Of a stretch of 40,477 nucleotides of DNA, positions 1 through 40,420 are shown one piece after another. The first letter of the stretch is position 1. Every line of letters begins with the position of its first letter. This DNA comes from Escherichia phage P694: the sequence record NC_028863.1; one strand, written 5' to 3'. Under the pieces are notes generated by a model. That model was given only the letters and a program-made list of their open reading frames with translations, was not told the origin of the DNA and did no database searches. Made by a program: the position numbers and the translations under genes.

Positions 1-172
1 CCCTGAGTGGTATCCCCACAATGGTAGCTATCAAGAACTTACTGTAGGCTCCGGTCACGTATGTACTGGTATCGTTCTGAACACTGGTGGCGTGTGCTCT
101 GGTATGCAACACCGGGGTATGTGGATTGGGTATCACAACGGCGCGCAACGTCAGGTTGCCTCTATTGGATAA
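1..172 (+). CDS. 17: Tail fibre protein, 3' end only (exact duplicate of 40249..40420)
   Basis: Bases 1..229 are identical to 40249..40477; the reading frame continues from the gene 17 ORF and stops at TAA 170..172. Confidence 0.85.
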   Translation, partial: PEWYPHNGSYQELTVGSGHVCTGIVLNTGGVCSGMQHRGMWIGYHNGAQRQVASIG

Positions 173-229
173 GGAGACATTATTATGAAGATTTACAAAG
201 GATGGAAGTACACTGTGGTTACTGATAAG
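1..229. repeat. Terminal overlap of the window with itself (1..229 = 40249..40477), indicating a circularised or concatemer-derived assembly
   Basis: Exact 229-bp identity between the window start and end, read directly. Confidence 0.9.
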
Positions 230-562
230 GATACCGGAATCTCCACTTACGACATCTTTAATGAAGACGGTATCGACTGGTATAAGATGATGGTCGAACT
301 GGACGACCGAGACCTTAAGTGGGTCATCGGGGTTAAAGATGGCTTCGTCAATTGGGCTACCACTAAGTCGGTCAACGGGATGAACTCCCCAGCCGATGGT
401 GGCATATTGATTCTAACAGATGACTTCCCGTTCCCTGAGAACACTTTCGGTGTTCGATTTGATGGTGAGAAGTTTTATAAAGAAGAACCAGTGGTTCGAA
501 CCAAAGCAGACATCGAGGCAGACCTTCTAAGGCTCATGGCTGAGTTGAAATCCATAAGCTAA
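185..562 (+). CDS. Hypothetical 125-aa protein between tail fibre and holin; no T7 counterpart I recognise; candidate tail-fibre-associated or host-range accessory protein
   Basis: ATG at 185 preceded by AAGGAGA 171..177; clean ORF in a tightly packed operon; position immediately after gene 17. Confidence 0.6.
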   Translation: MKIYKGWKYTVVTDKDTGISTYDIFNEDGIDWYKMMVELDDRDLKWVIGVKDGFVNWATTKSVNGMNSPADGGILILTDDFPFPENTFGVRFDGEKFYKEEPVVRTKADIEADLLRLMAELKSIS

Positions 563-574
563 TAGGAGGTTATT

Positions 575-781
575 ATGTTGTCTTTAGACTTCAACAATGA
601 AGTTGTTAAGGCGGCTCCGATTGTAGGGACAGGGGTAGCCGATGGTGCTGCCCGACTGTTCTTCGGACTGTCACTTAACGAGTGGTTCTATGTAGCCGCA
701 ATTGCCTACACAGTGGCTCAAATTGGTGCCAAGGTAGTCGATGTGATTATCAAATGGAAGAAGGAGGGTAAAGATGTCTAA
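575..781 (+). CDS. 17.5: Holin (T7 gp17.5-like, class II)
   Basis: 68 aa starting MLSLDFNNE..., near-identical to my recollection of T7 gp17.5; RBS AGGAGG upstream. Confidence 0.9.
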   Translation: MLSLDFNNEVVKAAPIVGTGVADGAARLFFGLSLNEWFYVAAIAYTVAQIGAKVVDVIIKWKKEGKDV

Positions 782-1043
782 CGATAAGTCCTTAATTCAA
801 TTCCTTGAGATGCTGGACACTGAGATGGCTCAACGTATGCTGAAAGACCTTCAGGATGACGATAAGCGCACACCTCAACTGTACAACGCTATCGGGAAAC
901 TATTAGAGCGCCACAAGTTCCAAGTCTCCAAGTTACAGCCAGACCGTAACATCCTTGGTGGACTGGCAGATGGACTCGAAGAGTACCAGAACCTAGTGGG
1001 TGCTGATGGTCTCACTGAAGATGAGAAGTACACACTGAATTGA
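774..1043 (+). CDS. 18: Terminase small subunit (DNA maturation protein A)
   Basis: 89 aa, same length and high similarity to T7 gp18 as recalled; start overlaps the holin stop. Confidence 0.9.
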   Translation: MSNDKSLIQFLEMLDTEMAQRMLKDLQDDDKRTPQLYNAIGKLLERHKFQVSKLQPDRNILGGLADGLEEYQNLVGADGLTEDEKYTLN

Positions 1044-1046
1044 TAG

Positions 1047-1095
1047 AATAACTCAAGGCCACTACATCTAGTGGTCTTTATGATATTTTATCACA
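1047..1095 (+). promoter_or_regulatory. RNase III processing-site-like hairpin (R18.5-like)
   Basis: Motif aactcaagg-hairpin-ctttatgat shared with the other intergenic hairpins at 5081, 5619, 6216, 7985, 11695 and 18561. Confidence 0.5.
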
Positions 1096-1141
1096 ACTCA
1101 CGGCGACTGTGCGTGAAATCTGGAAATATGGGAGGGTAGTT

Positions 1142-1588
1142 ATGCTCAAGAATTTAAAGAGATACGCCATAATCGCTGCGTTTGCCTTGGGAATTACCCT
1201 TGCGTACAACCACGGCTATGACAAGGCTAACACTAAATGGGAACAGGAGGTGCACAATGAGTACGTTAAGAAAGTTGAGGCGACTGCGGATAAACAGGCT
1301 GCTCTCAATGAAGTCTCACGACAATACCAAGAAGACCTTGCGGCGCTGGAAGGCAGCACTGATAGGGTCATTAATGATTTGCGTAACGATGGTAAGCGGC
1401 TGCGCGTCAAACTATCAGCCACCTCACGAGAACTCCAAGCTAACGGTGGATGCCTCGTTGATGGTCGAGCCGAACTTGACGAAGAGTTTAGTAAGCGTCT
1501 TATCGGAGTAACTCAAAGAGGGGATGCGTGGATTCGTGCGCTCCAAGATACAATCAAAGAAATGCAAACTAAGAAGGAGGCTAAGTAA
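1142..1588 (+). CDS. 18.5: Rz-like i-spanin (T7 gp18.5-like)
   Basis: Internal ATG 1142 with GGGAGG RBS; N-terminal membrane anchor; similarity to T7 gp18.5 ([12 protein letters not shown]... motif). Confidence 0.85.
1257..1511 (+). CDS. 18.7: Rz1-like o-spanin lipoprotein, embedded in the +1 frame of gene 18.5
   Basis: ATG 1257 with GGAGG RBS; lipobox-like ...[10 protein letters not shown]; C-terminal SLMVEPNLT as in T7 gp18.7. Confidence 0.8.
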   Translation: MSTLRKLRRLRINRLLSMKSHDNTKKTLRRWKAALIGSLMICVTMVSGCASNYQPPHENSKLTVDASLMVEPNLTKSLVSVLSE

Positions 1589-3348
1589 TGTCACAATCCC
1601 AAGAAGCTAAGAATGCGTTAATCATTGCGCAACTTAAGGGTGATTTTGTTGCTTTCTTATTCGTCTTATGGAAGGCTCTGAACTTACCTAAACCAACCAA
1701 GTGTCAGATTGATATGGCACGTACACTCGCTAATGGTGACCACAAGAAGTTTATCCTTCAGGCGTTCCGTGGTATCGGCAAGTCCTTTATCACCTGTGCG
1801 TTCGTTGTGTGGGTCTTATGGCGTGATCCTCAACTTAAGGTGCTCATCGTGTCTGCCTCTAAGGAACGTGCTGACGCTAACTCCATCTTCATCAAGAACA
1901 TCATTGACCTGCTGCCATTCCTCGCTGAGTTAAAACCTCGACCGGGACAGCGTGACTCTGTGATTAGCTTCGACGTTGGCTTGGCGAAACCCGACCACTC
2001 ACCCTCTGTGAAGTCTGTGGGTATCACTGGTCAGTTAACTGGTAGCCGTGCTGACATCATCATTGCAGATGACGTTGAGGTTCCCGGCAATAGCTCTACG
2101 AGTTCGGCCCGTGAGAAGCTCTGGACGTTGGTAACTGAGTTTGCTGCGTTACTTAAGCCACTGCCTACCTCTCGTGTTATCTACCTTGGCACACCTCAAA
2201 CCGAGATGACGCTCTACAAGGAACTTGAGGATAACAAAGGGTACAGCACTGTAATCTGGCCTGCACAGTATCCACGTAATGACGCTGAGGCTCTCTACTA
2301 TGGGGACCGCTTGGCTCCGATGCTTAAGGCTGAATACGATGAAGGCTTTGAGTTACTTCGTGGTCAACCTACTGACCCTATTCGATTCGATATGGATGAC
2401 CTCCGTGAACGTGAACTCGAATATGGCAAAGCTGGCTACACGCTTCAGTTCATGCTTAACCCGAACCTTAGTGATGCCGAGAAGTACCCGCTACGACTCC
2501 GTGACGCTATCGTGTGCGCTGTGGACCCTGAACGTGCCCCATTGTCTTACCAGTGGTTGCCGAACCGTCAGAACCGCAATGAGGAACTCCCTAACGTTGG
2601 TCTGAAGGGTGATGACATCCATGCGTTCCATACGTGCTCTTCTCGTACCGCTGAGTATCAGTCTAAGATTCTGGTCATTGACCCAAGTGGTCGTGGTAAG
2701 GATGAGACCGGGTATGCAGTCCTGTACTCACTTAACGGTTATATCTACTTGATGGAAGTCGGTGGGTTCCGTGGTGGTTACGATGATGCTACCCTAGAGA
2801 AGCTCGCTAAGAAGGCCAAGCAGTGGAAGGTACAGACAGTCGTCCACGAGTCCAACTTCGGTGATGGTATGTTCGGTAAGATTTTCTCTCCGATTCTCCT
2901 GAAGCACCACAAGTGTGCCTTAGAGGAAATCCGTGCTAAAGGCATGAAGGAGGTGCGAATCTGCGATACTATCGAACCATTGATGGGTGCGCACAAGCTG
3001 GTCATTCGTGATGAGGTTATCCGTGAGGACTACCAGACTGCTCGTGACCTTGATGGGAAACATGATGTTCGCTACAGTGCGTTCTATCAGATGACCCGTA
3101 TGACCCGTGAGCGAGGCGCTGTGGCACACGATGACCGACTTGATGCTATCGCATTGGGTATCGAGTTCCTGCGTGAAGGGATGCTTGTGGACAGCCGTGT
3201 AGGTGAAGAAGAGATGACCCTTGAGTTCCTTGAACACCACATGGAGAAACAGACCATTGGTGGTGATGCTATCCATAGCTACGATGTTGGTGGCGTGGAC
3301 ATCTACTACGAGGACGATGGAGACTCTAGCTGCTTCATTGAGTGGTAA
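1588..3348 (+). CDS. 19: Terminase large subunit (DNA maturation protein B)
   Basis: 586 aa, same length as T7 gp19 with high similarity as recalled; ATG overlaps the 18.5 stop. Confidence 0.95.
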
Positions 3349-3435
3349 TAGATAAGTATGCGGGAAAGGTGCATAGGTAAGCACTTAGTACCGCTACGTT
3401 ACCGTTAAGTAACTTACTGATATACATGAAGAAAT

Positions 3436-3458
3436 TAATACGACTCACTATTGGGAAG
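3436..3458 (+). promoter_or_regulatory. Phage RNAP promoter (phiOR-like)
   Basis: TAATACGACTCACTATTGGGAAGG, one mismatch to the T7 consensus at -1. Confidence 0.8.
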
Positions 3459-3615
3459 GGCACCCTAAGACAACTTAAAGACACTTAAAGACTGCATATG
3501 CAAAGTGCATACTTAGTGACTAACTCTAAGAGACCCTTACAGTGAGGGATGATAGTAATAGTAATTACATCCCCACTATCAGTGTAACCATCAAGTATAA
3601 CAAGGAGGACGCTCT

Positions 3616-3771
3616 ATGCGCTTACTAACCGTGCTCAAGACACTGGCAACGCATCGAGTGACCTATAAATTTCTCGTTGTACTTGCTGCTTCCATTGGTC
3701 TCGCATCTAGTGCTGAACACATCGGTGAACTGGAGACTCTGCTTTGTTCTCTACTCACTTGTGTTCCTTAG
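3616..3771 (+). CDS. 19.5: gp19.5-like small protein
   Basis: 51 aa MRLLTVLKTLATHRVTYKFLVVL..., similar to T7 gp19.5 as recalled; AAGGAGG RBS. Confidence 0.75.
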   Translation: MRLLTVLKTLATHRVTYKFLVVLAASIGLASSAEHIGELETLLCSLLTCVP

Positions 3772-8050: not shown

Positions 8051-10702
8051 ATGACTAACGTAATCAACGCACCAAAGAACGACTTCTCTGACATCGCTAA
8101 CGCAATCATGCCATACAACATTCTGGCTGACCATTACGGTGCACAGCTTGCAGCTACACAGCTTGAGTTAGAACATGAAGCGCACACTGAAGGCGAGAAG
8201 CGTTTCCTTAAGGCAATGGAACGTCAAATCAAAGCGGGTGAGTTCGGTGATAACGCAGTGGCTAAACCGCTCCTGTCATCTCTCGCACCAAAGTTTATCG
8301 AGGCGTGGAACACTTGGTTCACCGAGGTGGAAGCGAAGCGTGGCAAGCGTCCAGTGGCCTACAATCTGGTACAGAAGGTTGCACCTGAAGCGGCTGCTTT
8401 CATCACACTGAAGGTCACGCTGGCTTGCTTGACGAAAGAAGAGTTTACCAACCTGCAATCGGTCGCCACTAAGATTGGTCGTAGCATTGAAGATGAGTTA
8501 CGTTTCGGACGCATTCGTGATGAAGAAGCGAAACACTTTAAGAATCACGTACAGGAGGCACTGAACAAGCGCGTTGGTATCGTCTACAAGAAAGCATTCA
8601 TGCAAGCCGTAGAAGGCAAGATGTTAGACGCTGGTCAACTGCAAACCAAGTGGACTACATGGACACCTGAAGAATCAATTCACGTTGGTGTGCGCATGTT
8701 GGAACTGCTCATCGGGTCTACTGGTCTCGTTGAGTTACACCGACCGTTTGCTGGTAACGTTGAGAAGGATGGCGAGTACATCCAGTTAACCGAACAATAC
8801 GTTGACCTGTTATCTAAACGTGCTGGTGCACTGGCTGCAATCGCTCCAATGTATCAACCTTGCGTGGTCCCTCCTAAGCCTTGGACGAGTCCGGTCGGTG
8901 GCGGCTATTGGGCTGCTGGTCGCAAGCCTCTCTCTCTGGTTCGAACTGGTTCCAAGAAGGGACTTGAGCGTTACAACGACGTGTACATGCCTGAAGTTTA
9001 CAAGGCGGTGAACATCGCACAGAATACTCCTTGGAAGATTAACAAGAAGGTTCTGGCAGTGGTCAATGAGATTGTGAACTGGAAGCATTGCCCGGTTGAC
9101 GATGTACCTGCTCTCGAACGTGGTGAACTGCCTGTCAAACCTGAAGACATCGACACGAACGAAGCGGCTCTGAAAGCGTGGAAGAAAGCGGCCTCCGCAA
9201 TCTATCGCAAAGAGAAGGCCCGTGTGTCTCGTCGCATGAGCATGGAGTTCATGTTAGGGCAAGCCAACAAGTTCGCACAGTTTAAAGCTATCTGGTTCCC
9301 GATGAACATGGACTGGCGCGGTCGTGTGTATGCTGTACCGATGTTCAACCCGCAAGGCAACGACATGACCAAGGGTCTGTTAACGCTCGCTAAAGGTAAA
9401 CCAATCGGTGTCGATGGGTACTACTGGCTGAAGATTCACGGTGCTAACACTGCTGGCGTGGACAAGGTGGACTTTGCAGAACGCATCAAGTTCATTGAGG
9501 ACAACCACGAGAACATCATGAGCGTTGCGGCTGACCCGATTGCTAACACTTGGTGGGCTGAACAAGACTCTCCGTTCTGCTTCCTCGCGTTCTGCTTCGA
9601 GTATGCTGGCGTTCAACACCACGGTATGAACTACAACTGCTCTCTGCCGCTGGCGTTCGATGGCTCTTGCTCTGGTATTCAGCACTTCTCTGCAATGCTT
9701 CGTGATGAAGTAGGTGGACGCGCTGTTAACCTGATGCCAAGCAAGGAAGTACAAGACATCTACCGCATCGTTGCCGAACGTGTGAACGAAATCCTGAATC
9801 AAGATGTTATCAACGGGACCGACAACGAAGTAGAGACAGTGACCAACAAGGACACAGGCGAAATCACTGAGAAGCTGAAGTTAGGCACGAAGGAACTGGC
9901 TGGTCAATGGCTGGCATACGGTGTAACTCGCAAGGAAACTAAGCGTTCGGTCATGACGTTGGCTTACGGTTCCAAAGAGTACGGCTTCCGTGACCAAGTT
10001 CTTGAGGACACCATTCAGCCAGCTATCGACGATGGCAATGGATTGATGTTCACTCAACCGAACCAAGCTGCTAGCTATATGGCTAAACTGATTTGGAACG
10101 CTGTAACGGTGACTGTGGTCGCAGCGGTTGAAGCGATGAACTGGTTGAAGTCTGCTGCTAAACTTCTGGCTGCTGAAGTCAAGGACAAGAAGACTAAAGA
10201 GGTTCTCCGCAAGCGCTGCGCGGTACATTGGGTAACACCTGATGGCTTCCCTGTGTGGCAGGAGTATCGCAAGGCAGTACAGACTCGTTTGAACCTGATG
10301 TTCTTGGGTCAGATTCGTTTGCAGCCTACTGTGAACACCAACAAGGATAGCGGAATTGACGCACGTAAGCAGGAGTCAGGCATCGCACCTAACTTTGTTC
10401 ACTCAATGGACGGCAGCCACCTGAGAATGACTGTAGTGCGCTCCAATGAGGTCTACGGTGTGGAATCCTTCGCACTGATTCATGACTCCTTTGGTACTAT
10501 CCCTGCTGATGCTGGCAACCTGTTTAAAGCAGTGCGTGAAACGATGGTCAACACTTACGAAGAGAACGATGTACTTGCAGACTTCTATGAACAGTTTGCG
10601 GACCAGTTGCACGAGTCACAGCTTGACAAGATGCCTGAGATGCCAGCTAAAGGCGCTCTCGACCTCCAAGAAATCCTGAAGTCAGACTTTGCGTTTGCCT
10701 AA
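8051..10702 (+). CDS. 1: Single-subunit DNA-directed RNA polymerase
   Basis: 883 aa, same length as T7 RNAP, near-identical over long stretches including the C-terminal ...FAFA. Confidence 0.98.
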   Translation: MTNVINAPKNDFSDIANAIMPYNILADHYGAQLAATQLELEHEAHTEGEKRFLKAMERQIKAGEFGDNAVAKPLLSSLAPKFIEAWNTWFTEVEAKRGKRPVAYNLVQKVAPEAAAFITLKVTLACLTKEEFTNLQSVATKIGRSIEDELRFGRIRDEEAKHFKNHVQEALNKRVGIVYKKAFMQAVEGKMLDAGQLQTKWTTWTPEESIHVGVRMLELLIGSTGLVELHRPFAGNVEKDGEYIQLTEQYVDLLSKRAGALAAIAPMYQPCVVPPKPWTSPVGGGYWAAGRKPLSLVRTGSKKGLERYNDVYMPEVYKAVNIAQNTPWKINKKVLAVVNEIVNWKHCPVDDVPALERGELPVKPEDIDTNEAALKAWKKAASAIYRKEKARVSRRMSMEFMLGQANKFAQFKAIWFPMNMDWRGRVYAVPMFNPQGNDMTKGLLTLAKGKPIGVDGYYWLKIHGANTAGVDKVDFAERIKFIEDNHENIMSVAADPIANTWWAEQDSPFCFLAFCFEYAGVQHHGMNYNCSLPLAFDGSCSGIQHFSAMLRDEVGGRAVNLMPSKEVQDIYRIVAERVNEILNQDVINGTDNEVETVTNKDTGEITEKLKLGTKELAGQWLAYGVTRKETKRSVMTLAYGSKEYGFRDQVLEDTIQPAIDDGNGLMFTQPNQAASYMAKLIWNAVTVTVVAAVEAMNWLKSAAKLLAAEVKDKKTKEVLRKRCAVHWVTPDGFPVWQEYRKAVQTRLNLMFLGQIRLQPTVNTNKDSGIDARKQESGIAPNFVHSMDGSHLRMTVVRSNEVYGVESFALIHDSFGTIPADAGNLFKAVRETMVNTYEENDVLADFYEQFADQLHESQLDKMPEMPAKGALDLQEILKSDFAFA

Positions 10703-10709
10703 CGGAATC

Positions 10710-10731
10710 TAATACGACTCACTATTGGGAG
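10710..10731 (+). promoter_or_regulatory. Phage RNAP promoter (phi1.1A-like); candidate primary replication origin region
   Basis: TAATACGACTCACTATTGGGAG followed by a GCCTTCGGGC hairpin and an AT-rich leader. Confidence 0.8.
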
Positions 10732-10792
10732 CCTTCGGGCTTCCTACACTTTAAGATAACTTTAAGTTCTAACTCTAAGAGGAAACAACATT

Positions 10793-10924
10793 ATGCGTAA
10801 CTTCGAAAAGATGACCAAAAGTTCCAACCGTAACGCTCATGACTTCGAGGCAACTAAGGGTCGCAAGTTTAATAAACCATTACGCACCCGTGCGCATAAA
10901 CGCTGCTGGAAGGAGGCACTCTAA
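10793..10924 (+). CDS. 1.1: gp1.1-like small basic protein, copy A (T7-like allele)
   Basis: 43 aa MRNFEKMTKSSNRNAHDFEATKGRK..., close to T7 gp1.1 as recalled; GAGGAAA RBS. Confidence 0.75.
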   Translation: MRNFEKMTKSSNRNAHDFEATKGRKFNKPLRTRAHKRCWKEAL

Positions 10925-11196
10925 TGGGACGCTTATACAGTGGTAACTTAATAGCATACAAAGACGCTATCGAACGACTTAAAGAAGACCATGATGCAAA
11001 TGTGGTCGTTGAGACTTATCGCTATGAGGACTTCGCACAGCGACGGATGGTCGCCGGAGAGACACTTCGAGTGGTCTTACGGAATGGCTTAATGCTGACC
11101 GCTAAGTGTTTCGAACAGGATGATGCAGACGTTCGCTGTAATGCACAGACTGAATGGCTCCGCAAGGTTCACAGTGATATGAAGCACTGGAAGTAA
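10924..11196 (+). CDS. 1.2: gp1.2-like protein, copy A (divergent allele); dGTPase-inhibitor family
   Basis: 90 aa; shares the N-terminal MGRLYSGNL.A.K and C-terminal ...KHWK with copy B but is divergent in the middle. Confidence 0.7.
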   Translation: MGRLYSGNLIAYKDAIERLKEDHDANVVVETYRYEDFAQRRMVAGETLRVVLRNGLMLTAKCFEQDDADVRCNAQTEWLRKVHSDMKHWK

Positions 11197-11216
11197 TACG
11201 ACTCACTATTGGGGAG
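11194..11216 (+). promoter_or_regulatory. Phage RNAP promoter (phi1.1B-like)
   Basis: TAATACGACTCACTATTGGGGAG followed by a leader near-identical to 10732..10792. Confidence 0.8.
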
Positions 11217-11266
11217 CCTATGGGCTTCCTACACTTTAAGTTCTAACTCTAAGAGGAAACAACATT

Positions 11267-11416
11267 ATGCGTACCAACTTTGAACCAACCACTAAGCGCA
11301 ACAACGTAATCAATGAACATGGTGCTGAATGGCAGGAACGTAAAGACCGCATGAAGAAACGTCACAAGACACAACGTGGCAACTCTGAGAAACGCAACTG
11401 GAAGGAGACAATCTAA
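11267..11416 (+). CDS. gp1.1-like small basic protein, copy B (divergent allele)
   Basis: 49 aa MRTNFEPTTKRNNVINEHGAEWQERKDRMKKRHK...; same leader and RBS as copy A. Confidence 0.65.
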   Translation: MRTNFEPTTKRNNVINEHGAEWQERKDRMKKRHKTQRGNSEKRNWKETI

Positions 11417-11673
11417 TGGGTCGCTTATACGGTGGGAATCTTAGCGCATTCAAGGCCGCTGCTGGTCGAATCTTTAAGCTGGACTTAGTTGTCACATGTG
11501 ATGAATGGTATGAAGCACATATTCGTCTTGAGTGTATCAGGCTGCGCATAGAGGACCGGGATGGTCGCCTTATCGACTCTACTATTTGTAGTCATCATGA
11601 CGAAGACGTTCTCTATAGCACTTGTACCAATTGGCTGAACCGTATGTATGACCAGTTGAAAGACTGGAAGTAA
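11416..11673 (+). CDS. 1.2: gp1.2, inhibitor of host dGTP triphosphohydrolase, copy B (T7-like allele)
   Basis: 85 aa, same length as T7 gp1.2 and very similar as recalled (...CIRLRIEDRDGRLID...HHDEDVLY..CT.WLN.MYDQLKDWK). Confidence 0.85.
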   Translation: MGRLYGGNLSAFKAAAGRIFKLDLVVTCDEWYEAHIRLECIRLRIEDRDGRLIDSTICSHHDEDVLYSTCTNWLNRMYDQLKDWK

Positions 11674-11694
11674 TACGACTCACTATTGCGAGAG
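11671..11694 (+). promoter_or_regulatory. Phage RNAP promoter (phi1.3-like)
   Basis: TAATACGACTCACTATTGCGAGAGG. Confidence 0.7.
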
Positions 11695-11741
11695 GTAAAC
11701 TCAAGGTCATCCGAAAGGTTGGCCTTTGTGATTAACTTTTG
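11695..11741 (+). promoter_or_regulatory. RNase III-like hairpin (R1.3-like)
   Basis: gtaaactcaaggtcatccgaaaggttggcctttgtgattaac. Confidence 0.5.
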
Positions 11742-11781
11742 TTTAAACATTAACCAATAACACACATATAGGAGTTCCACC

Positions 11782-12834
11782 ATGGAAATCACATTTAAGA
11801 CTTCGCCACATAAAGCTGTATCATTCGTTGAGTCTGCCGTTAATAAAGCCCTCGACAAAGCTGGCTACCTGATTGCTGACATTAAATATGATGGCGTTCG
11901 TGGTAACATTGTAGTTGACAATACGGCTGACTCTGCGTGGCTCTCTCGTGTCTCCAAAGAGATTCCTGCTCTGTCACATCTCAACGGGTACGACAAGCGC
12001 TGGGAGATGCTCCTGAAGGATGACCGCTGTATCTTCCCTGATGGATTCATGCTTGATGGTGAACTGATGGTCAAAGGCGTGGACTTTAACACAGGGTCTG
12101 GCTTACTGAGGACCAAGTGGCTCAAGCAGAAGAACTTCATGTACACTGATTGTTCTGAGTGGGGCAAGGACTGTAATGGAAAACCTTTTGAGCTAGACGT
12201 TAAGCGACTCAAGGTTGTTCTCTACGGTGTCATGCCGTTTGACTCTATGGTCTCCGGTGAGACCTACGAAGTGATGAACCTATTAATGCGTGAGCACGTT
12301 AAGGCTATGCTTCCTGTTCTGCGTGAGCACTTCCCTGAAATCGAATGGGACATCTCTGAGAGCTATGAAGTCTACGATATGGTAGAACTGAATGCCCTCT
12401 ATGAGAAAGCCCGTGCCGATGGTCATGAAGGTCTGGTAGTCAAAGACCCTCTGGGCTTCTACATGCGTGGCAAGAAGTCTGGCTACTGGAAGATGAAGCC
12501 TGAGTGTGAAGCTGATGGTGTCATCGTGGGACTCAACTGGGGTACTCCGGGTCTGGCTAATGAAGGTAAAGTGATTGGCTTCGAGGTTCTCCTTGAGTCC
12601 GGTCGCGTAGTCTCCGCTAACAATATCAGCCAAGCGTTGATGGATGAGTTCACCAATAACGTTTTTGATGCTACAAACATCCTAAATGTAAGAACTGAGA
12701 GTGATTGGGTTAACCCTTATCAGGGCTGGCAGTGCCAAGTGGCCTACATGGAACAAACTCCTGACGGTTCTCTGCGTCACCCATCGTTCGCTATGTTCCG
12801 TGGTGTCGAGTCAGACCCAACGGTCAAGATGTAA
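11782..12834 (+). CDS. 1.3: ATP-dependent DNA ligase
   Basis: 350 aa; adenylation motif KYDGVRG near residue 35; overall T7 ligase similarity as recalled. Confidence 0.92.
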   Translation: MEITFKTSPHKAVSFVESAVNKALDKAGYLIADIKYDGVRGNIVVDNTADSAWLSRVSKEIPALSHLNGYDKRWEMLLKDDRCIFPDGFMLDGELMVKGVDFNTGSGLLRTKWLKQKNFMYTDCSEWGKDCNGKPFELDVKRLKVVLYGVMPFDSMVSGETYEVMNLLMREHVKAMLPVLREHFPEIEWDISESYEVYDMVELNALYEKARADGHEGLVVKDPLGFYMRGKKSGYWKMKPECEADGVIVGLNWGTPGLANEGKVIGFEVLLESGRVVSANNISQALMDEFTNNVFDATNILNVRTESDWVNPYQGWQCQVAYMEQTPDGSLRHPSFAMFRGVESDPTVKM

Positions 12835-38692: not shown

Positions 38693-40420
38693 ATGGCTCT
38701 TAAAATTCGTACCGTAATGACTTACCCGCTGAATGGCTCTACTGTGGACTTCGGTATCACGTTTGAGTATCTAGCGCGTAAGTTCGTTTCGGTGACTCTT
38801 ATTGGTAAAGACCGCAAAGAGTTGGTCTTGAATCAGGACTTCCGGTTTACCACTAAGACTCAAATCACAACCACTCGTGCGTGGAGTCCATCTGATGGAT
38901 ACACCATGATTGAGATTCGTCGTTACACCTCCGTTACCGACCGTCTGGTGGACTTTGCTGATGGTTCTATCCTCCGTGCTTATGACCTGAACATTGCTCA
39001 AATCCAGACACTTCACGTTGCTGAAGAGGCTCGTGATTTAACAGCGGATACGATTGGCGTTAACAACGATGGGAACCTAGATGCGCGTGGTCGCCGCATT
39101 GTGAACCTAGCGAATGCTGTAGAGGATGGTGATGCTATCAATCTTGGTCAGGTAAAGGGCTGGAATGAATCAGCATGGAACTCTAAGAATGAAGCGGCAA
39201 CATCTGCCAACTGGTCTGCTCGCTGGGCGCAAGGTGAAGGTGTCATCGCTGATGGTCGCTACTCTTCCCGCCAATACAACGAATGGGCGATGGCTATTCA
39301 GAAGGATGTAGAGCGTATGCGTGGCCTTGTGGCTGCTGACGCTAAGTGGGCAGATGAGTCTGTCAACAAGGCAAAGAACTCCGAGAACGCTGCTGCCGCG
39401 TCTGCTACTGCTGCTTCTGGTGATGCTCGCTGGGCTAACGAATCGGCACAGAAGGCAAAGACATCTGAGACCAACGCGAAGGCTTCCGAAGAAAGGGCAA
39501 TCCTTGAGGCGAACAAGCTGGAGAACAACAATGCACTAGCGGCCTCTATCCGTGGAATCACTGGTAACGACGTTAAGTGGAAGGGTTCTCACCAGTTTAC
39601 TAACGGTGTCTCTATTGTTCGTGCTGACAACTTAGAGCACGTTTGGCGGCAGGGCTTATGGGCTGAAGGTAATGCGCTTCACTCCGACTTTGTTACCGAG
39701 CTTCCGGGTGGAGAGTTTGGTTCTGGTGCTTTCACTCATATGCACTTCGTATATCCAGTATCAGGGGTTCCTACTCTTGACATGTACCCACACACAACGT
39801 TCAACTCCAAGGTCGTAACAAAGTCGATGATTGATTCACAGGCTAACTTCTCTGGTGCGCACTCTGACCAGTACAACGACTATGCCCCACTGTGGCAACA
39901 GGTTCGTGCTTCGAGTGGTAATGAGTTCTTCCCGTTAATCAAACAGCGTTCCTATCAGGCTGGGGCTGATGCTCGCTCTTGGACTATGGGTATTCTATTG
40001 GATAACAACAGAATCGCGCAGTGGAACCTACTGACGACTAACGAGGGAGGTGTTGCAAATGCGTCCTATACGTGGACTCGTGATGGGGACTTTAATGCTC
40101 CTCGTCAGGTAGTCTCTGGCTCTTTCAGAACACATGGTGGTAGTGTATTAGGTGGCGATGGTAACATCACAGGCAGTGCATTCGGGCCTCAGAACAACAT
40201 TGCGGATTGGATTCGTGCCAACTTCCCCGGTGACATCTGGCTCGCCAACCCTGAGTGGTATCCCCACAATGGTAGCTATCAAGAACTTACTGTAGGCTCC
40301 GGTCACGTATGTACTGGTATCGTTCTGAACACTGGTGGCGTGTGCTCTGGTATGCAACACCGGGGTATGTGGATTGGGTATCACAACGGCGCGCAACGTC
40401 AGGTTGCCTCTATTGGATAA
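38693..40420 (+). CDS. 17: Tail fibre protein with conserved N-terminal tail-attachment domain and divergent C-terminal receptor-binding region
   Basis: 575 aa; residues 1 to about 150 closely match T7 gp17 (FEYLARKFV.VTLIG.DRK, RLVDFADGSILRAYDLN.AQIQT.HVAEEARDLT.DTIGVNNDG.LDARGRRIVNLANAV); the C-terminal half does not match T7 as I recall it. Confidence 0.93.
   Translation: MALKIRTVMTYPLNGSTVDFGITFEYLARKFVSVTLIGKDRKELVLNQDFRFTTKTQITTTRAWSPSDGYTMIEIRRYTSVTDRLVDFADGSILRAYDLNIAQIQTLHVAEEARDLTADTIGVNNDGNLDARGRRIVNLANAVEDGDAINLGQVKGWNESAWNSKNEAATSANWSARWAQGEGVIADGRYSSRQYNEWAMAIQKDVERMRGLVAADAKWADESVNKAKNSENAAAASATAASGDARWANESAQKAKTSETNAKASEERAILEANKLENNNALAASIRGITGNDVKWKGSHQFTNGVSIVRADNLEHVWRQGLWAEGNALHSDFVTELPGGEFGSGAFTHMHFVYPVSGVPTLDMYPHTTFNSKVVTKSMIDSQANFSGAHSDQYNDYAPLWQQVRASSGNEFFPLIKQRSYQAGADARSWTMGILLDNNRIAQWNLLTTNEGGVANASYTWTRDGDFNAPRQVVSGSFRTHGGSVLGGDGNITGSAFGPQNNIADWIRANFPGDIWLANPEWYPHNGSYQELTVGSGHVCTGIVLNTGGVCSGMQHRGMWIGYHNGAQRQVASIG

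What the first reader, a model, noticed from the sequence alone, without database searches (positions are those of the whole stretch)
10710..11673. Tandem mosaic duplication of the promoter-gene 1.1-gene 1.2 module
Two consecutive units, each with a phage promoter, a near-identical leader ending in AAGTTCTAACTCTAAGAGGAAACAACATT-ATG, a small basic 1.1-like ORF and a 1.2-like ORF. Unit 1 has a T7-like 1.1 and a divergent 1.2; unit 2 has a divergent 1.1 and a T7-like 1.2. T7 gp1.2 inhibits host dGTPase, so two divergent alleles may target different host dGTPases, or one may have a new function. The pattern suggests recombination between two parental phages with both alleles retained.
Basis: partly seen in the sequence, partly recalled or inferred. 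Interest (0 to 1): 0.65.

Follow-up and report, generated by a model that had tools for sequence, protein, structure and literature searches.

The report
Two allelic gp1.1–gp1.2 cassettes in tandem
A T7-like coliphage (it matches Escherichia phage P694) carries, head to tail, both natural versions of a small operon whose second gene blocks the host enzyme that destroys dGTP; the two versions were joined by recombination inside a phage promoter, a rare but real arrangement built from known parts.

Summary
There are two consecutive units, each with a phage promoter, a 5' hairpin, a leader, gene 1.1 and a translationally coupled gene 1.2.

It is not a duplication that later diverged. The two units are pre-existing alleles. 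Unit 1 is a T7-type gp1.1 plus a T3-type 90-aa gp1.2. Unit 2 is a T3-type gp1.1 plus a T7-type 85-aa gp1.2. Each unit occurs alone, with proteins 98-100% identical, at the same locus in other Berlinvirus-like phages.

The junction lies inside the 18-nt promoter core shared by phi1.1 and phi1.3, as expected from unequal homologous recombination between two phages.

Misassembly is very unlikely. An independent contig from another sequencing run (L030), about 93% identical, has the same architecture and the same junction.

Double-1.2 genomes are rare. Among 491 phage records with a gp1.2 match, the fused-query ranking showed only EG1 as a clear two-allele carrier, and EG1 has a different junction.

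Both gp1.2 copies belong to PF10922 and keep the N-terminal MGRLY(S/G)GNL segment that T7 gp1.2 inserts into the Dgt active site. Both are probably dGTPase inhibitors. The literature says the T3-type allele overcomes F/PifA exclusion and the T7-type allele triggers it. Whether keeping both is adaptive is inferred, not shown.

Verdict: a real feature, a new variant of a known kind, of moderate interest.

The parts
8051..10702 (+). Gene 1, T7-type RNA polymerase (883 aa). This is the upstream context.
   Evidence: ORF. Neighbouring genes in related contigs carry PF00940/PF14700.
10710..10732 (+). Phage promoter phi1.1 of unit 1 (TAATACGACTCACTATTGGGAGC).
   Evidence: The same position is annotated as promoter phi1.1 in Yepe2 and ETEP21B.
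10727..10744 (+). 5' hairpin at +1 of the unit 1 transcript (GGGAGCC-UUCG-GGCUUCC).
   Evidence: a 7-bp stem forms in both the MFE and the centroid structure.
10759..10799 (+). Leader with the ribosome-binding site AAGAGG and the start of gene 1.1. It is 100% identical to 11233-11273.
   Evidence: repeat family D3.
10793..10924 (+). Gene 1.1-I: a T7-type gp1.1 of 43 aa, small and basic.
   Evidence: PF08200, E 1.6e-13. 74% identical to T7 gp1.1. The identical protein sits in single-unit contigs.
10924..11196 (+). Gene 1.2-B: a T3/Berlinvirus-type gp1.2 of 90 aa. It is translationally coupled to gene 1.1 (TAATG overlap).
   Evidence: PF10922 at 44.6 bits. 54% identical to T3 gp1.2. AF2 model with pLDDT 88, matching 7u66_G at TM 0.84/0.89. 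The identical protein occurs in 16 contigs, and all 10 shown are single-unit.
11180..11211 (+). Left copy of the direct repeat flanking unit 2 (TGAAGCACTGGAAGTAATACGACTCACTATTG). It contains the recombination junction.
   Evidence: family D2 (94% to 11657-11688)..
11194..11216 (+). Hybrid phage promoter of unit 2. Its upstream context matches phi1.3 and its downstream context matches phi1.1.
   Evidence: promoter-context table.
11212..11229 (+). 5' hairpin of the unit 2 transcript (GGGAGCC-UAUG-GGCUUCC).
11233..11273 (+). Leader and ribosome-binding site of unit 2. It lacks one ACTTTAAGATA repeat that unit 1 and L030 have.
11267..11416 (+). Gene 1.1-II: a T3-type gp1.1 of 49 aa.
   Evidence: PF08200, E 6.1e-12. 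Alignment A4.
11416..11673 (+). Gene 1.2-A: a T7-type gp1.2 of 85 aa, translationally coupled to gene 1.1.
   Evidence: PF10922 at 137 bits. PDB 2mdp/7u65, E 6e-38. Identical to AJF40498.1 of Escherichia phage P694.
11657..11688 (+). Right copy of the direct repeat flanking unit 2.
   Evidence: family D2.
11671..11693 (+). Promoter phi1.3, followed by an R1.3-like hairpin region and the ligase gene.
   Evidence: T3 and Yepe2 annotate the equivalent promoter.
10898..10968 (+). Conserved 1.1/1.2 boundary block (TGGAAGGAG..TAATGGG.CGCTTATAC), 79% identical to 11390-11460. It is a second recombination linker.
   Evidence: family D1. EG1's junction uses this block.
11782..12834 (+). Gene 1.3, DNA ligase. 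This is the downstream context.
   Evidence: PF01068/PF17879 in related contigs.

Best explanation
The locus holds two allelic versions of the early/middle 1.1-1.2 operon of T7-like phages, joined head to tail.

Origin (shown from sequence comparison):
- One parent had gene 1 - phi1.1 - leader - T7-type 1.1 - T3-type 1.2 - phi1.3 - ligase.
- The other parent had gene 1 - phi1.1 - leader - T3-type 1.1 - T7-type 1.2 - phi1.3 - ligase.
- Unequal homologous recombination paired the phi1.3 promoter of the first parent with the phi1.1 promoter of the second. The crossover fell within the shared TAATACGACTCACTATTG core.
- The product carries both cassettes. The second is flanked by a 24-32 nt direct repeat.
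- The arrangement is heritable. A second, roughly 7% diverged phage contig has the same junction.

Expression (inferred from intact signals):
- Each unit keeps its own phage promoter, 5' hairpin, Shine-Dalgarno site and TAATG translational coupling.
- No terminator lies between the units, so all four proteins should be made.

Function (inferred):
- Both gp1.2 proteins have the gp1.2 fold and the conserved N-terminal segment that T7 gp1.2 inserts into the active site of host dGTPase (Dgt).
- Both therefore most likely protect the dGTP pool.
- They differ on the rest of the surface, including the secondary Dgt contacts.
- Carrying both probably widens the range of host dGTPase or defence backgrounds the phage tolerates.
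- One specific option comes from the literature. The T3-type copy may supply the 'overcomes F/PifA exclusion' activity, and the T7-type copy may be the potent Dgt inhibitor.
For: Anatomy.

Family membership:
- PF08200 twice and PF10922 twice; the PHROG family for 'dGTPase inhibitor; target for F exclusion'.
- PDB matches 2mdp/7u65 at E 4e-9 for copy B and 6e-38 for copy A.
- AF2 model of copy B has pLDDT 88, and its best fold match is 7u66_G at TM 0.84/0.89 and rmsd 1.9 A.

Allele typing: 1.2-B is 54% identical to T3 gp1.2 and 35% to T7; 1.2-A is 67% identical to T7. gp1.1 types are.

Each unit occurs alone elsewhere:
- L019 and L024 carry 1.1-I and 1.2-B at 100% protein identity, followed directly by ligase; L018 and L022 carry 1.1-I at 98% with 1.2-B at 100%.
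- L043-L046, P151, WW1 and Yepe2 carry 1.1-II plus 1.2-A.

Breakpoint:
- X-type contigs are colinear with the window up to 11211 and then resume at 11660. The overlap is the repeat CTGGAAGTAATACGACTCACTATTG.
- The promoter-context table shows a phi1.3-type left flank and a phi1.1-type right flank at 11194.

Independent second instance:
- L030 (Logan SRR11859173) is colinear with window 10792-12090 at 92.7% identity, and all four ORFs are intact.
- It shares the same junction and the rare TATG hairpin loop.
- The shared core is only 18 nt, shorter than common assembly k-mers (my inference). The window's gp1.2-A equals that of the cultured isolate P694, whose record is 40,477 bp long, the same as the window.

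Constraint and conservation:
- Both allele classes evolve under purifying selection: median dN/dS is 0.13 for B and 0.21 for A.
- The N-terminal segment MGRLYSGNL is present in 45 of 50 copies, across both classes.
- The residues contacting the Dgt active site are the N-terminal amine, R3, L4, Y5, S6 and G7 (PMC9478638).

Recurrence: EG1 independently combined a T7-type and a T3-type 1.2 through a different junction.

T3/T7 phenotypic difference on F/PifA.
Against: - No expression or activity data exist for either copy.
- In the window, copy A carries S6G, and S6 hydrogen-bonds Dgt N133 in the T7 complex. In L030, copy B carries R3L, which changes the key active-site arginine. One copy per genome may therefore be relaxing rather than both being maintained.
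- Only 3-11 substitutions per gene separate the two tandem genomes, so selection within the tandem lineage cannot be measured.
- The arrangement is rare: two related genomes plus EG1, against hundreds of single-copy genomes. That would also fit a neutral or mildly deleterious recombination product.
- Both alleles occur in phages of E. coli, so a simple 'one allele per host species Dgt' model is not supported.
- No near-identical (>99%) parental genomes were found; the best flanks are about 95% identical.
Confidence: 0.7

Rival explanations
1. Neutral or transient recombination by-product. The tandem is real, but the second gp1.2 is redundant. It persists only because it arose recently, and it will be lost by recombination between the flanking repeats. 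It gives no functional gain.
For: - It is rare among more than 490 gp1.2-bearing phage records and about 90 contigs.
- One copy in each tandem genome has a substitution in the otherwise conserved N-terminal segment: S6G in the window's copy A and R3L in L030's copy B.
- Window versus L030 shows 0 synonymous and 3 non-synonymous changes in copy A.
- Direct repeats of 24-41 nt flank the units. From my own knowledge, such repeats are deletion-prone in T7.
Against: - All four ORFs and all their expression signals are intact in two genomes that differ by about 7% and have since been re-assorted in their flanks: the ligase and the unit 1 leader differ.
- The window's 1.2-B protein is identical to the copy in single-unit phages.
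- EG1 independently acquired the same pair of alleles.
Confidence: 0.3
2. Trigger-plus-protector pair. The T7-type copy inhibits Dgt but is sensed by abortive-infection systems (PifA, possibly ApeA). The T3-type copy acts mainly to neutralise that exclusion, so the pair gives Dgt inhibition without the exclusion penalty. This is a specific sub-case of the best explanation.
For: - T3 gene 1.2 is annotated 'necessary to overcome F plasmid-mediated exclusion; dGTPase inhibitor'.
- T7 gp1.2 or gp10 elicits F exclusion, and T3 gp1.2 prevents it (PMC3276506, citing Schmitt & Molineux 1991).
- In the BASEL collection, PifA resistance tracks the Berlinvirus-type gp1.2 clade. 1.2-B is 80% identical to JeanTinguely's resistant allele.
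- T7 gp1.2 also appears to trigger ApeA (preprint PMC11482910).
Against: - 1.2-A is only 67% identical to T7 gp1.2, and it is unknown whether it triggers PifA.
- BASEL notes that PifA sensitivity is more complex than two alleles of one locus.
- Many Berlinviruses carry 1.2-A alone, so that allele is viable without a protector.
- 1.2-B is only 54% identical to T3 gp1.2.
Confidence: 0.2
3. Assembly artefact. Two co-existing strains with different 1.1-1.2 alleles were concatenated through the repeated promoter.
For: The units are bounded by repeated promoter and leader sequence. Both single-unit types circulate in the same kinds of samples. Some contigs break near these repeats (L025, L036, L037).
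Against: - An independent assembly from another run (L030), 92.7% identical, reads through both junctions with the same join.
- The sequence common to the phi1.1 and phi1.3 contexts is only 18 nt, so junction-spanning k-mers must exist in the reads (my inference).
- The window matches a cultured isolate genome, P694.
Confidence: 0.03
4. Classical in-genome tandem duplication followed by divergence of the two copies (paralogues born in this lineage).
For: The order is head to tail and the leaders are near-identical.
Against: - The coding parts are only about 32% identical at protein level, yet each is 98-100% identical to alleles found alone in other phages.
- The two classes correspond to the old T7/T3 split.
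Confidence: 0.02
5. The selected feature is the extra promoter and AT-rich leader, not the proteins. It could raise transcription of downstream class II genes or act as a second replication origin, since the primary origins of T7 and T3 lie at the promoters just downstream of gene 1.
For: - T3 annotates its primary origin next to the promoter after gene 1.
- T7 itself has two tandem promoters here, phi1.1A and phi1.1B.
- No terminator separates the units.
Against: There is no direct evidence. The ORFs are maintained intact. EG1 gained a second 1.2 without gaining a promoter.
Confidence: 0.05

Closest known systems
Bacteriophage T7 genes 1.1-1.2 (phi1.1A/B - 1.1 - 1.2 - phi1.3); gp1.2 is the inhibitor of E. 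coli dGTPase (PDB 2MDP, 7U65-7U67)
   Same: - Same genomic position, between gene 1 and the ligase.
- Same promoter type, and the same small basic gp1.1 followed by gp1.2.
- 1.1-I is 74% and 1.2-A is 67% identical to the T7 proteins.
- The N-terminal active-site segment is conserved.
   Different: T7 has a single 1.1-1.2 pair. Here a second pair of the other allele type is inserted upstream, and 1.2-A carries S6G.
Bacteriophage T3 genes 1.1-1.2; gp1.2 is annotated as a dGTPase inhibitor needed to overcome F exclusion
   Same: 1.1-II and 1.2-B are of the T3 type: 90 aa, the same 5-residue insertion, and 54% identity for gp1.2.
   Different: In the window the T3-type 1.2 is paired with a T7-type 1.1 and the T3-type 1.1 with a T7-type 1.2. 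The window has no gene 1.05. Whether 1.2-B shares T3 gp1.2's anti-exclusion activity has not been tested.
Escherichia phage EG1 (Teseptimavirus, MG488277): 1.1 - 1.2(T7-type, 88 aa) - 1.2(T3-type, 90 aa)
   Same: It is the only clear two-allele case found in the phage collection, with both a T7-type and a T3-type gp1.2. Its T3-type copy is 93% identical to the window's 1.2-B.
   Different: - The order is reversed (A then B).
- There is no second promoter, leader or 1.1 gene.
- The join used TGGAAG microhomology between the end of 1.2 (..DWK) and the end of 1.1 (..WKEAL), adding EAL to the first gp1.2.
- It is therefore an independent event.
Single-unit Berlinvirus relatives (RN5i1, pO103, 285P, BA14, P483, P151, WW1, Yepe2, Logan contigs)
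   Same: The backbone is 90-95% identical, and the promoters, leaders and allele sequences are the same.
   Different: They carry one cassette only, in any of the combinations I+B, II+B or II+A. Many have gene 1.05 (185-189 aa, PF25755) between gene 1 and gene 1.1, which the window lacks.
Modular exchange at conserved boundary sequences in phage genomes (modular theory of phage evolution; from my own knowledge)
   Same: Allelic cassettes are bounded by short conserved blocks: promoter plus leader, the 1.1/1.2 junction, and the 3' end plus promoter. All four 1.1 x 1.2 combinations exist in nature.
   Different: Here the exchange was unequal, so both alleles were kept instead of one being swapped for the other.

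Membership tests
gp1.2 dGTPase inhibitor (Pfam PF10922, T7-like_gp12) | Full-length match to the family profile above the gathering score | tested here: met
   1.2-B scores 44.6 bits and 1.2-A scores 137.4 bits, against a cut-off of 22; both hit phrog_2949, at E 4e-35 and 4e-36.
gp1.2 dGTPase inhibitor (Pfam PF10922, T7-like_gp12) | alpha-beta3-alpha fold of T7 gp1.2 (2MDP / 7U66 chain G) | tested here: met
   The 1.2-B model has pLDDT 88.2 and the element order H-E-E-E-H. Its top Foldseek hit is 7u66_G, TM 0.84/0.89, rmsd 1.9 A. 1.2-A was tested by sequence only: 2mdp at E 6e-38 over residues 1-85. Caveat: the alignment used for the 1.2-B model was mostly T7-type sequences.
gp1.2 dGTPase inhibitor (Pfam PF10922, T7-like_gp12) | N-terminal active-site segment (free N-terminus, R3, L4, Y5, S6, G7) that displaces dGTP phosphates and blocks H126 of Dgt (PMC9478638) | tested here: met
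   1.2-B is MGRLYSGNL, so all residues are present. 1.2-A is MGRLYGGNL, so R3, L4, Y5 and G7 are present and S6 is replaced by G.
gp1.2 dGTPase inhibitor (Pfam PF10922, T7-like_gp12) | Secondary Dgt contacts of T7 gp1.2 (A10, F12, K13, Y28, V65) | tested here: inconclusive
   K13 and V65 are kept in both copies. Position 12 is F in A and Y in B. A10 is S in A and I in B. Y28 is C in A and a non-aromatic residue in B. These contacts may differ between host Dgt variants.
gp1.2 dGTPase inhibitor (Pfam PF10922, T7-like_gp12) | Biochemical inhibition of host dGTPase, and requirement for growth on optA1 hosts | not testable with these tools
   This needs a purified-protein assay or plating. It is known for T7 gp1.2 (PMC9478638) and is annotated for T3 gp1.2.
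gp1.2 dGTPase inhibitor (Pfam PF10922, T7-like_gp12) | Synteny: immediately downstream of gene 1.1 and coupled to it, upstream of phi1.3 and the ligase | tested here: met
   Both copies follow a 1.1 gene with a TAATG overlap. Copy A is followed by phi1.3 and the ligase. Copy B is followed by the hybrid promoter.
gp1.1 (Pfam PF08200, Phage_1_1) | Profile match above the gathering score; a small basic protein directly after the phi1.1 promoter and leader | tested here: met
   51.3 and 46.2 bits, against a cut-off of 21. The function of this family is unknown.
T7-group phage promoter | 23-bp consensus TAATACGACTCACTATNGGGAGA-like, on the + strand, recurring through the genome | tested here: met
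   12 sites, all on the + strand, against 0.02 expected. The equivalent sites are annotated as promoters in Yepe2, ETEP21B, T3 and T7. Activity was not tested.
Recent in situ tandem duplication (paralogues) | The copies are each other's closest relatives | tested here: not met
   The copies are 32% identical to each other but 98-100% identical to alleles in other phages.
Unequal homologous recombination product between two allelic parents | Both parental single-unit forms exist; the junction lies in sequence shared by the two non-allelic sites; the insert is flanked by the resulting direct repeat | tested here: met
   X-type parents are L018, L019, L024 and L031-L035. Y-type parents are L043-L046. 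The junction lies in the 18-nt promoter core. The flanking repeat is family D2. No parents more than 99% identical were found.

The most novel reading that the evidence does not exclude
The two gp1.2 alleles form a trigger/protector pair. The T7-type copy inhibits Dgt but is sensed by abortive-infection proteins such as PifA (and possibly ApeA). The T3-type copy dominantly neutralises that sensing. The tandem would then be a phage-encoded 'counter-defence plus anti-sensor' module, assembled twice independently (the P694 lineage and EG1). A further speculation is that the conserved boundary blocks make the tandem a reservoir from which repeat-mediated deletion can produce either single-unit type or a hybrid cassette.
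Probability: 0.15. Interest if true: 0.6.

Novelty: new variant of a known kind. Interest (0 to 1): 0.38.

Why it matters
gp1.2 is a model phage counter-defence protein: it inhibits the SAMHD1-like host dGTPase. It is also a known trigger of abortive infection (F/PifA).

The T7-type and T3-type alleles have been treated as alternatives that decide PifA sensitivity. A natural phage that carries and presumably expresses both gives a ready-made system for three questions:
1. Do the alleles have distinct targets?
2. Is the T3-type activity dominant?
3. How do short promoter and gene-boundary homologies drive cassette shuffling in T7-like phages?

For phage therapy engineering, it suggests that stacking the two alleles is tolerated in nature.

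All components are known families, the genome is already public, and mosaic recombination in this group is well known. The finding is therefore incremental rather than surprising.

Tried and rejected
- Rfam scan of 10500-12000 at E<=1 gave no match, so no known structured RNA explains the leaders.
- The terminator and sigma-70 scan found nothing above the shuffled background between the units.
- An exact junction pattern searched in IMG/VR gave 0 hits.
- IMG/VR protein-guided scans returned mostly the same isolate genomes. Only EG1 had two copies.
- The JGI metagenome scan gave 3 loci, all single-unit.
- I tried to list every phage record with two tblastn places. EG1 (GenBank plus RefSeq) explains 2 of the 4 extra places. 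The fused-query search ranked only EG1 as a true A+B carrier. The 2-3 remaining extra places could not be listed and may be alignment-splitting artefacts.
- dN/dS inside the tandem lineage has too few substitutions to interpret.
- The primary papers on F exclusion (PMC207293, PMC344857) and the P694 description (Chen et al. 2016, Gene) are not held. Accession KP090454, guessed from memory, is not in the collection. I could therefore not check whether the authors noted the double cassette.
- I considered host-species-specific Dgt adaptation and down-weighted it, because both alleles occur in E. coli phages.
- I considered in situ duplication and rejected it (see the membership test).
Full report
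**1. What is there**

The window is a T7-like phage genome. Gene 1 (RNA polymerase, 883 aa) ends at 10702, and the DNA ligase gene starts at 11782. Two units lie between them.
- Unit 1: promoter core TAATACGACTCACTAT at 10710; a 5' hairpin GGGAGCC-UUCG-GGCUUCC; a leader; a 43-aa ORF (10793-10924); and a 90-aa ORF (10924-11196).
- Unit 2: promoter at 11194; hairpin GGGAGCC-UAUG-GGCUUCC; leader; a 49-aa ORF (11267-11416); and an 85-aa ORF (11416-11673).
- A third promoter at 11671 precedes the ligase.

In each unit the second ORF overlaps the stop codon of the first (TAATG) and is preceded by GGAAGGAG. The promoter motif occurs 12 times in the window, always on the + strand, against 0.02 expected by chance. 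Both small ORFs are PF08200 (gp1.1) and both larger ones are PF10922 (gp1.2), all above Pfam's thresholds.

**2. The two units are different alleles, not diverged copies**

Within the window the two gp1.2 are 32% identical, and the two gp1.1 about 32%. The non-coding and boundary blocks are far more alike:
- a 41-nt stretch of the leader is 100% identical;
- the promoter/hairpin block is 93% identical;
- a 71-nt block across the 1.1/1.2 boundary is 79% identical;
- the last 32 nt of gene 1.2 plus the promoter are 94% identical.

Alignment with T7 and T3 sorts the proteins by type.
- 1.1-I is T7-type (74% identical to T7 gp1.1), and 1.1-II groups with T3 gp1.1.
- 1.2-A is T7-type (67% to T7 gp1.2; PDB 2mdp at E 6e-38).
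- 1.2-B is T3-type (90 aa, 54% to T3 gp1.2, 35% to T7).

So unit 1 is T7-type 1.1 plus T3-type 1.2, and unit 2 is T3-type 1.1 plus T7-type 1.2.

**3. Each unit exists alone elsewhere**

- The exact 1.2-B protein occurs in 16 public contigs. All 10 examined have one unit followed directly by ligase. Four of these carry the 43-aa 1.1-I. Contigs with the exact 1.1-I show the same picture. These are the 'X-type' parents.
- Relatives of unit 2 occur alone in P151, WW1 and Yepe2. They also occur alone in contigs L043-L046, whose layout is gene 1 - promoter/leader - 1.1-II - 1.2-A - phi1.3 - ligase. These are the 'Y-type' parents.
- Across the subfamily all four 1.1 x 1.2 combinations exist (T7: I+A; L019: I+B; Yepe2: II+A; T3 and RN5i1: II+B). 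The 1.1/1.2 boundary is therefore itself a frequent crossover point.

**4. How the tandem arose**

X-type contigs are colinear with the window up to 11211 and then resume at 11660. The two alignments overlap in CTGGAAGTAATACGACTCACTATTG. A table of every promoter context shows how the promoter at 11194 is built. Its left flank is the flank that precedes phi1.3 in X-type phages (..aagcactggaag). Its right flank is the one that follows phi1.1 (gggagcct.tgggcttcc..).

The crossover therefore lies within the 18-nt core TAATACGACTCACTATTG shared by phi1.1 and phi1.3. This is the signature of unequal homologous recombination between two co-infecting phages. It leaves unit 2 flanked by a 24-32 nt direct repeat (family D2). 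I did not find parents more than 99% identical; the best flanks are about 95% identical.

**5. It is not an assembly artefact**

The window's 1.1-II protein occurs on a 1,317-nt contig from an unrelated run (L030, Logan SRR11859173).
- Its gene order is 1.1-I, 1.2-B, promoter, leader, 1.1-II, 1.2-A, ligase.
- It is colinear with window 10792-12090 at 92.7% identity, with the same junction and the same rare UAUG hairpin loop.
- Its ligase and its unit 1 leader are of different types from the window's.

This looks like one ancestral event followed by divergence and further mosaic exchange. Because the shared core is only 18 nt, junction-spanning k-mers must exist in the reads (my inference).

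The window's 1.2-A sequence equals AJF40498.1/YP_009204335.1 of Escherichia phage P694. That record is 40,477 bp long, the same length as the window. The window is therefore almost certainly this cultured isolate, which seems to be absent from the searchable phage collection. Its nearest records there are nasanit and P483, at about 92-93% identity.

**6. How common is it?**

- Of 493 phage records with a gp1.2 match, a fused A+B query ranks only EG1 as carrying both types.
- Among 24 IMG/VR loci, only EG1 has two copies.
- The 3 JGI metagenome loci are all single-unit.

EG1 is an independent event: 1.1 - 1.2(T7-type, 88 aa) - 1.2(T3-type), with no second promoter or 1.1 gene. Its join used TGGAAG microhomology between the end of 1.2 (..DWK) and the end of a 1.1 gene (..WKEAL), which leaves 'EAL' appended to the first gp1.2. 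The combination of a T7-type and a T3-type gp1.2 has thus arisen at least twice.

**7. What the proteins probably do**

The Dgt-gp1.2 cryo-EM work (PMC9478638) describes how T7 gp1.2 works.
- It inserts its N-terminus into the dGTPase active site.
- The N-terminal amine and R3 bind the nucleotide phosphates, and L4 holds H126.
- Y5, S6 and G7 pack on monomer A, with secondary contacts from A10, F12, K13, Y28 and V65.

The motif MGRLYSGNL is present in 45 of 50 copies collected here, in both allele classes. 1.2-B has it intact, and 1.2-A has S6G.

An AF2 model of 1.2-B (pLDDT 88) has the alpha-beta3-alpha fold. It best matches T7 gp1.2 in the Dgt complex (7u66_G, TM 0.84/0.89). The alignment behind that model was dominated by T7-type sequences, which is a caveat.

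Both allele classes are under purifying selection overall, with median dN/dS of 0.13 and 0.21. I infer that both copies are dGTPase inhibitors that differ in their secondary surfaces.

The literature adds a known phenotypic split.
- T3 gene 1.2 is 'necessary to overcome F plasmid-mediated exclusion' (T3 record).
- T7 gp1.2 or gp10 elicits PifA-dependent exclusion, and T3 gp1.2 prevents it (PMC3276506).
- In the BASEL collection, PifA resistance tracks the Berlinvirus-type clade, to which 1.2-B belongs (80% identical to JeanTinguely's allele).
- A preprint reports that T7 gp1.2 also triggers ApeA.

Both alleles occur in phages of E. coli. A 'one allele per host species' model is therefore less attractive than selection by defence systems within a host species.

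**8. Caveats on function**

- Nothing here shows expression or activity.
- In each tandem genome one copy carries a change in the conserved N-terminal segment: the window's 1.2-A has S6G, and L030's 1.2-B has R3L, the key arginine. This could reflect relaxed constraint on a redundant copy or the beginning of specialisation. With two genomes it is only an anecdote.
- The repeats flanking the units should make deletion easy in a recombination-proficient phage (my own knowledge of T7 deletion studies).
- Persistence in two diverged genomes hints at retention by selection but does not prove it.
- I give the neutral-by-product rival about 0.3.

**9. Comparison with the known, and verdict**

All parts belong to known families (T7-group promoters, PF08200, PF10922), and mosaic exchange at this locus is known. 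What is unusual is that both allelic cassettes were kept through a promoter-mediated unequal crossover.

The genome is already public, and its proteins are annotated as dGTPase inhibitors. I found no paper that discusses the double cassette, though the original description could not be read.

I rate it a new variant of a known kind. The anatomy is real and clearly explained, and the functional question is easy to test. A specialist would not find it very surprising.

Noticed in passing
window 11416-11442, and L030 142-168: Each of the two tandem genomes has one gp1.2 copy with a substitution in the otherwise conserved N-terminal segment MGRLYSGNL. The window's 1.2-A has S6G, and L030's 1.2-B has R3L, the arginine that enters the Dgt active site in the T7 complex. 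This may be relaxed constraint on a redundant copy or a sequencing error.
   Followed up: partly
window 11240-11241, compared with window 10748-10758 and L030 462-472: The unit 2 leader of the window lacks an 11-nt ACTTTAAGATA. That stretch is present in unit 1, in L030's unit 2 and in the single-unit relatives that lack gene 1.05. It looks like a slippage deletion between the two ACTTTAAG repeats.
   Followed up: partly
L007 (Escherichia phage EG1, MG488277) 1235-1773: EG1 carries two gp1.2 genes fused end to start. The first ends ..DWKEAL, because the join re-used the last codons of a gene 1.1 (TGGAAGGAGGCACTCTAATGGG). This is an independent route to carrying both the T7-type and the T3-type gp1.2.
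   Followed up: yes
window 10703-10792; L004 743-1300, L002 745-1314, L001 744-1016: The window has no gene 1.05. Many Berlinvirus relatives carry a 185-189 aa gene 1.05 (PF25755) between gene 1 and gene 1.1, driven by the same promoter and leader. In P151 the 1.05 ORF is only 90 aa, and a separate 40-aa ORF matches the usual C-terminus, so it is probably disrupted.
   Followed up: no
L029 676-933: This contig has the window's exact 1.1-II but an 85-aa gp1.2 that is very different from 1.2-A (dN 0.39). Similarity to the window returns only near the 3' end of the gene. It is a further 85-aa allele, and another sign that the 1.1/1.2 boundary block is a crossover point.
   Followed up: partly
window 1-3700 and 38693-40420: The record is circularly permuted relative to the T7 convention. 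A 586-aa ORF at 1588-3348, probably the terminase large subunit (by position), comes first, and the early region follows after about 3436. A 575-aa ORF at 38693-40420, probably the tail fibre (by position), closes the window. The true genome ends and terminal repeats were not located.
   Followed up: no
window 10710-10792 and 11194-11266; L041 (T3) 483-559: T3's primary replication origin is annotated just after the promoter downstream of gene 1, and T7 has two tandem promoters (phi1.1A and phi1.1B) at the equivalent position. The duplicated promoter plus AT-rich leader in the window could therefore also duplicate an origin-like element. This was not tested.
   Followed up: no
L036 and L037 (3' contig ends), L025 (5' contig end): Several short-read contigs break at or near the promoter or boundary repeats around this locus. 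This is consistent with mixed allele populations in those samples.
   Followed up: no
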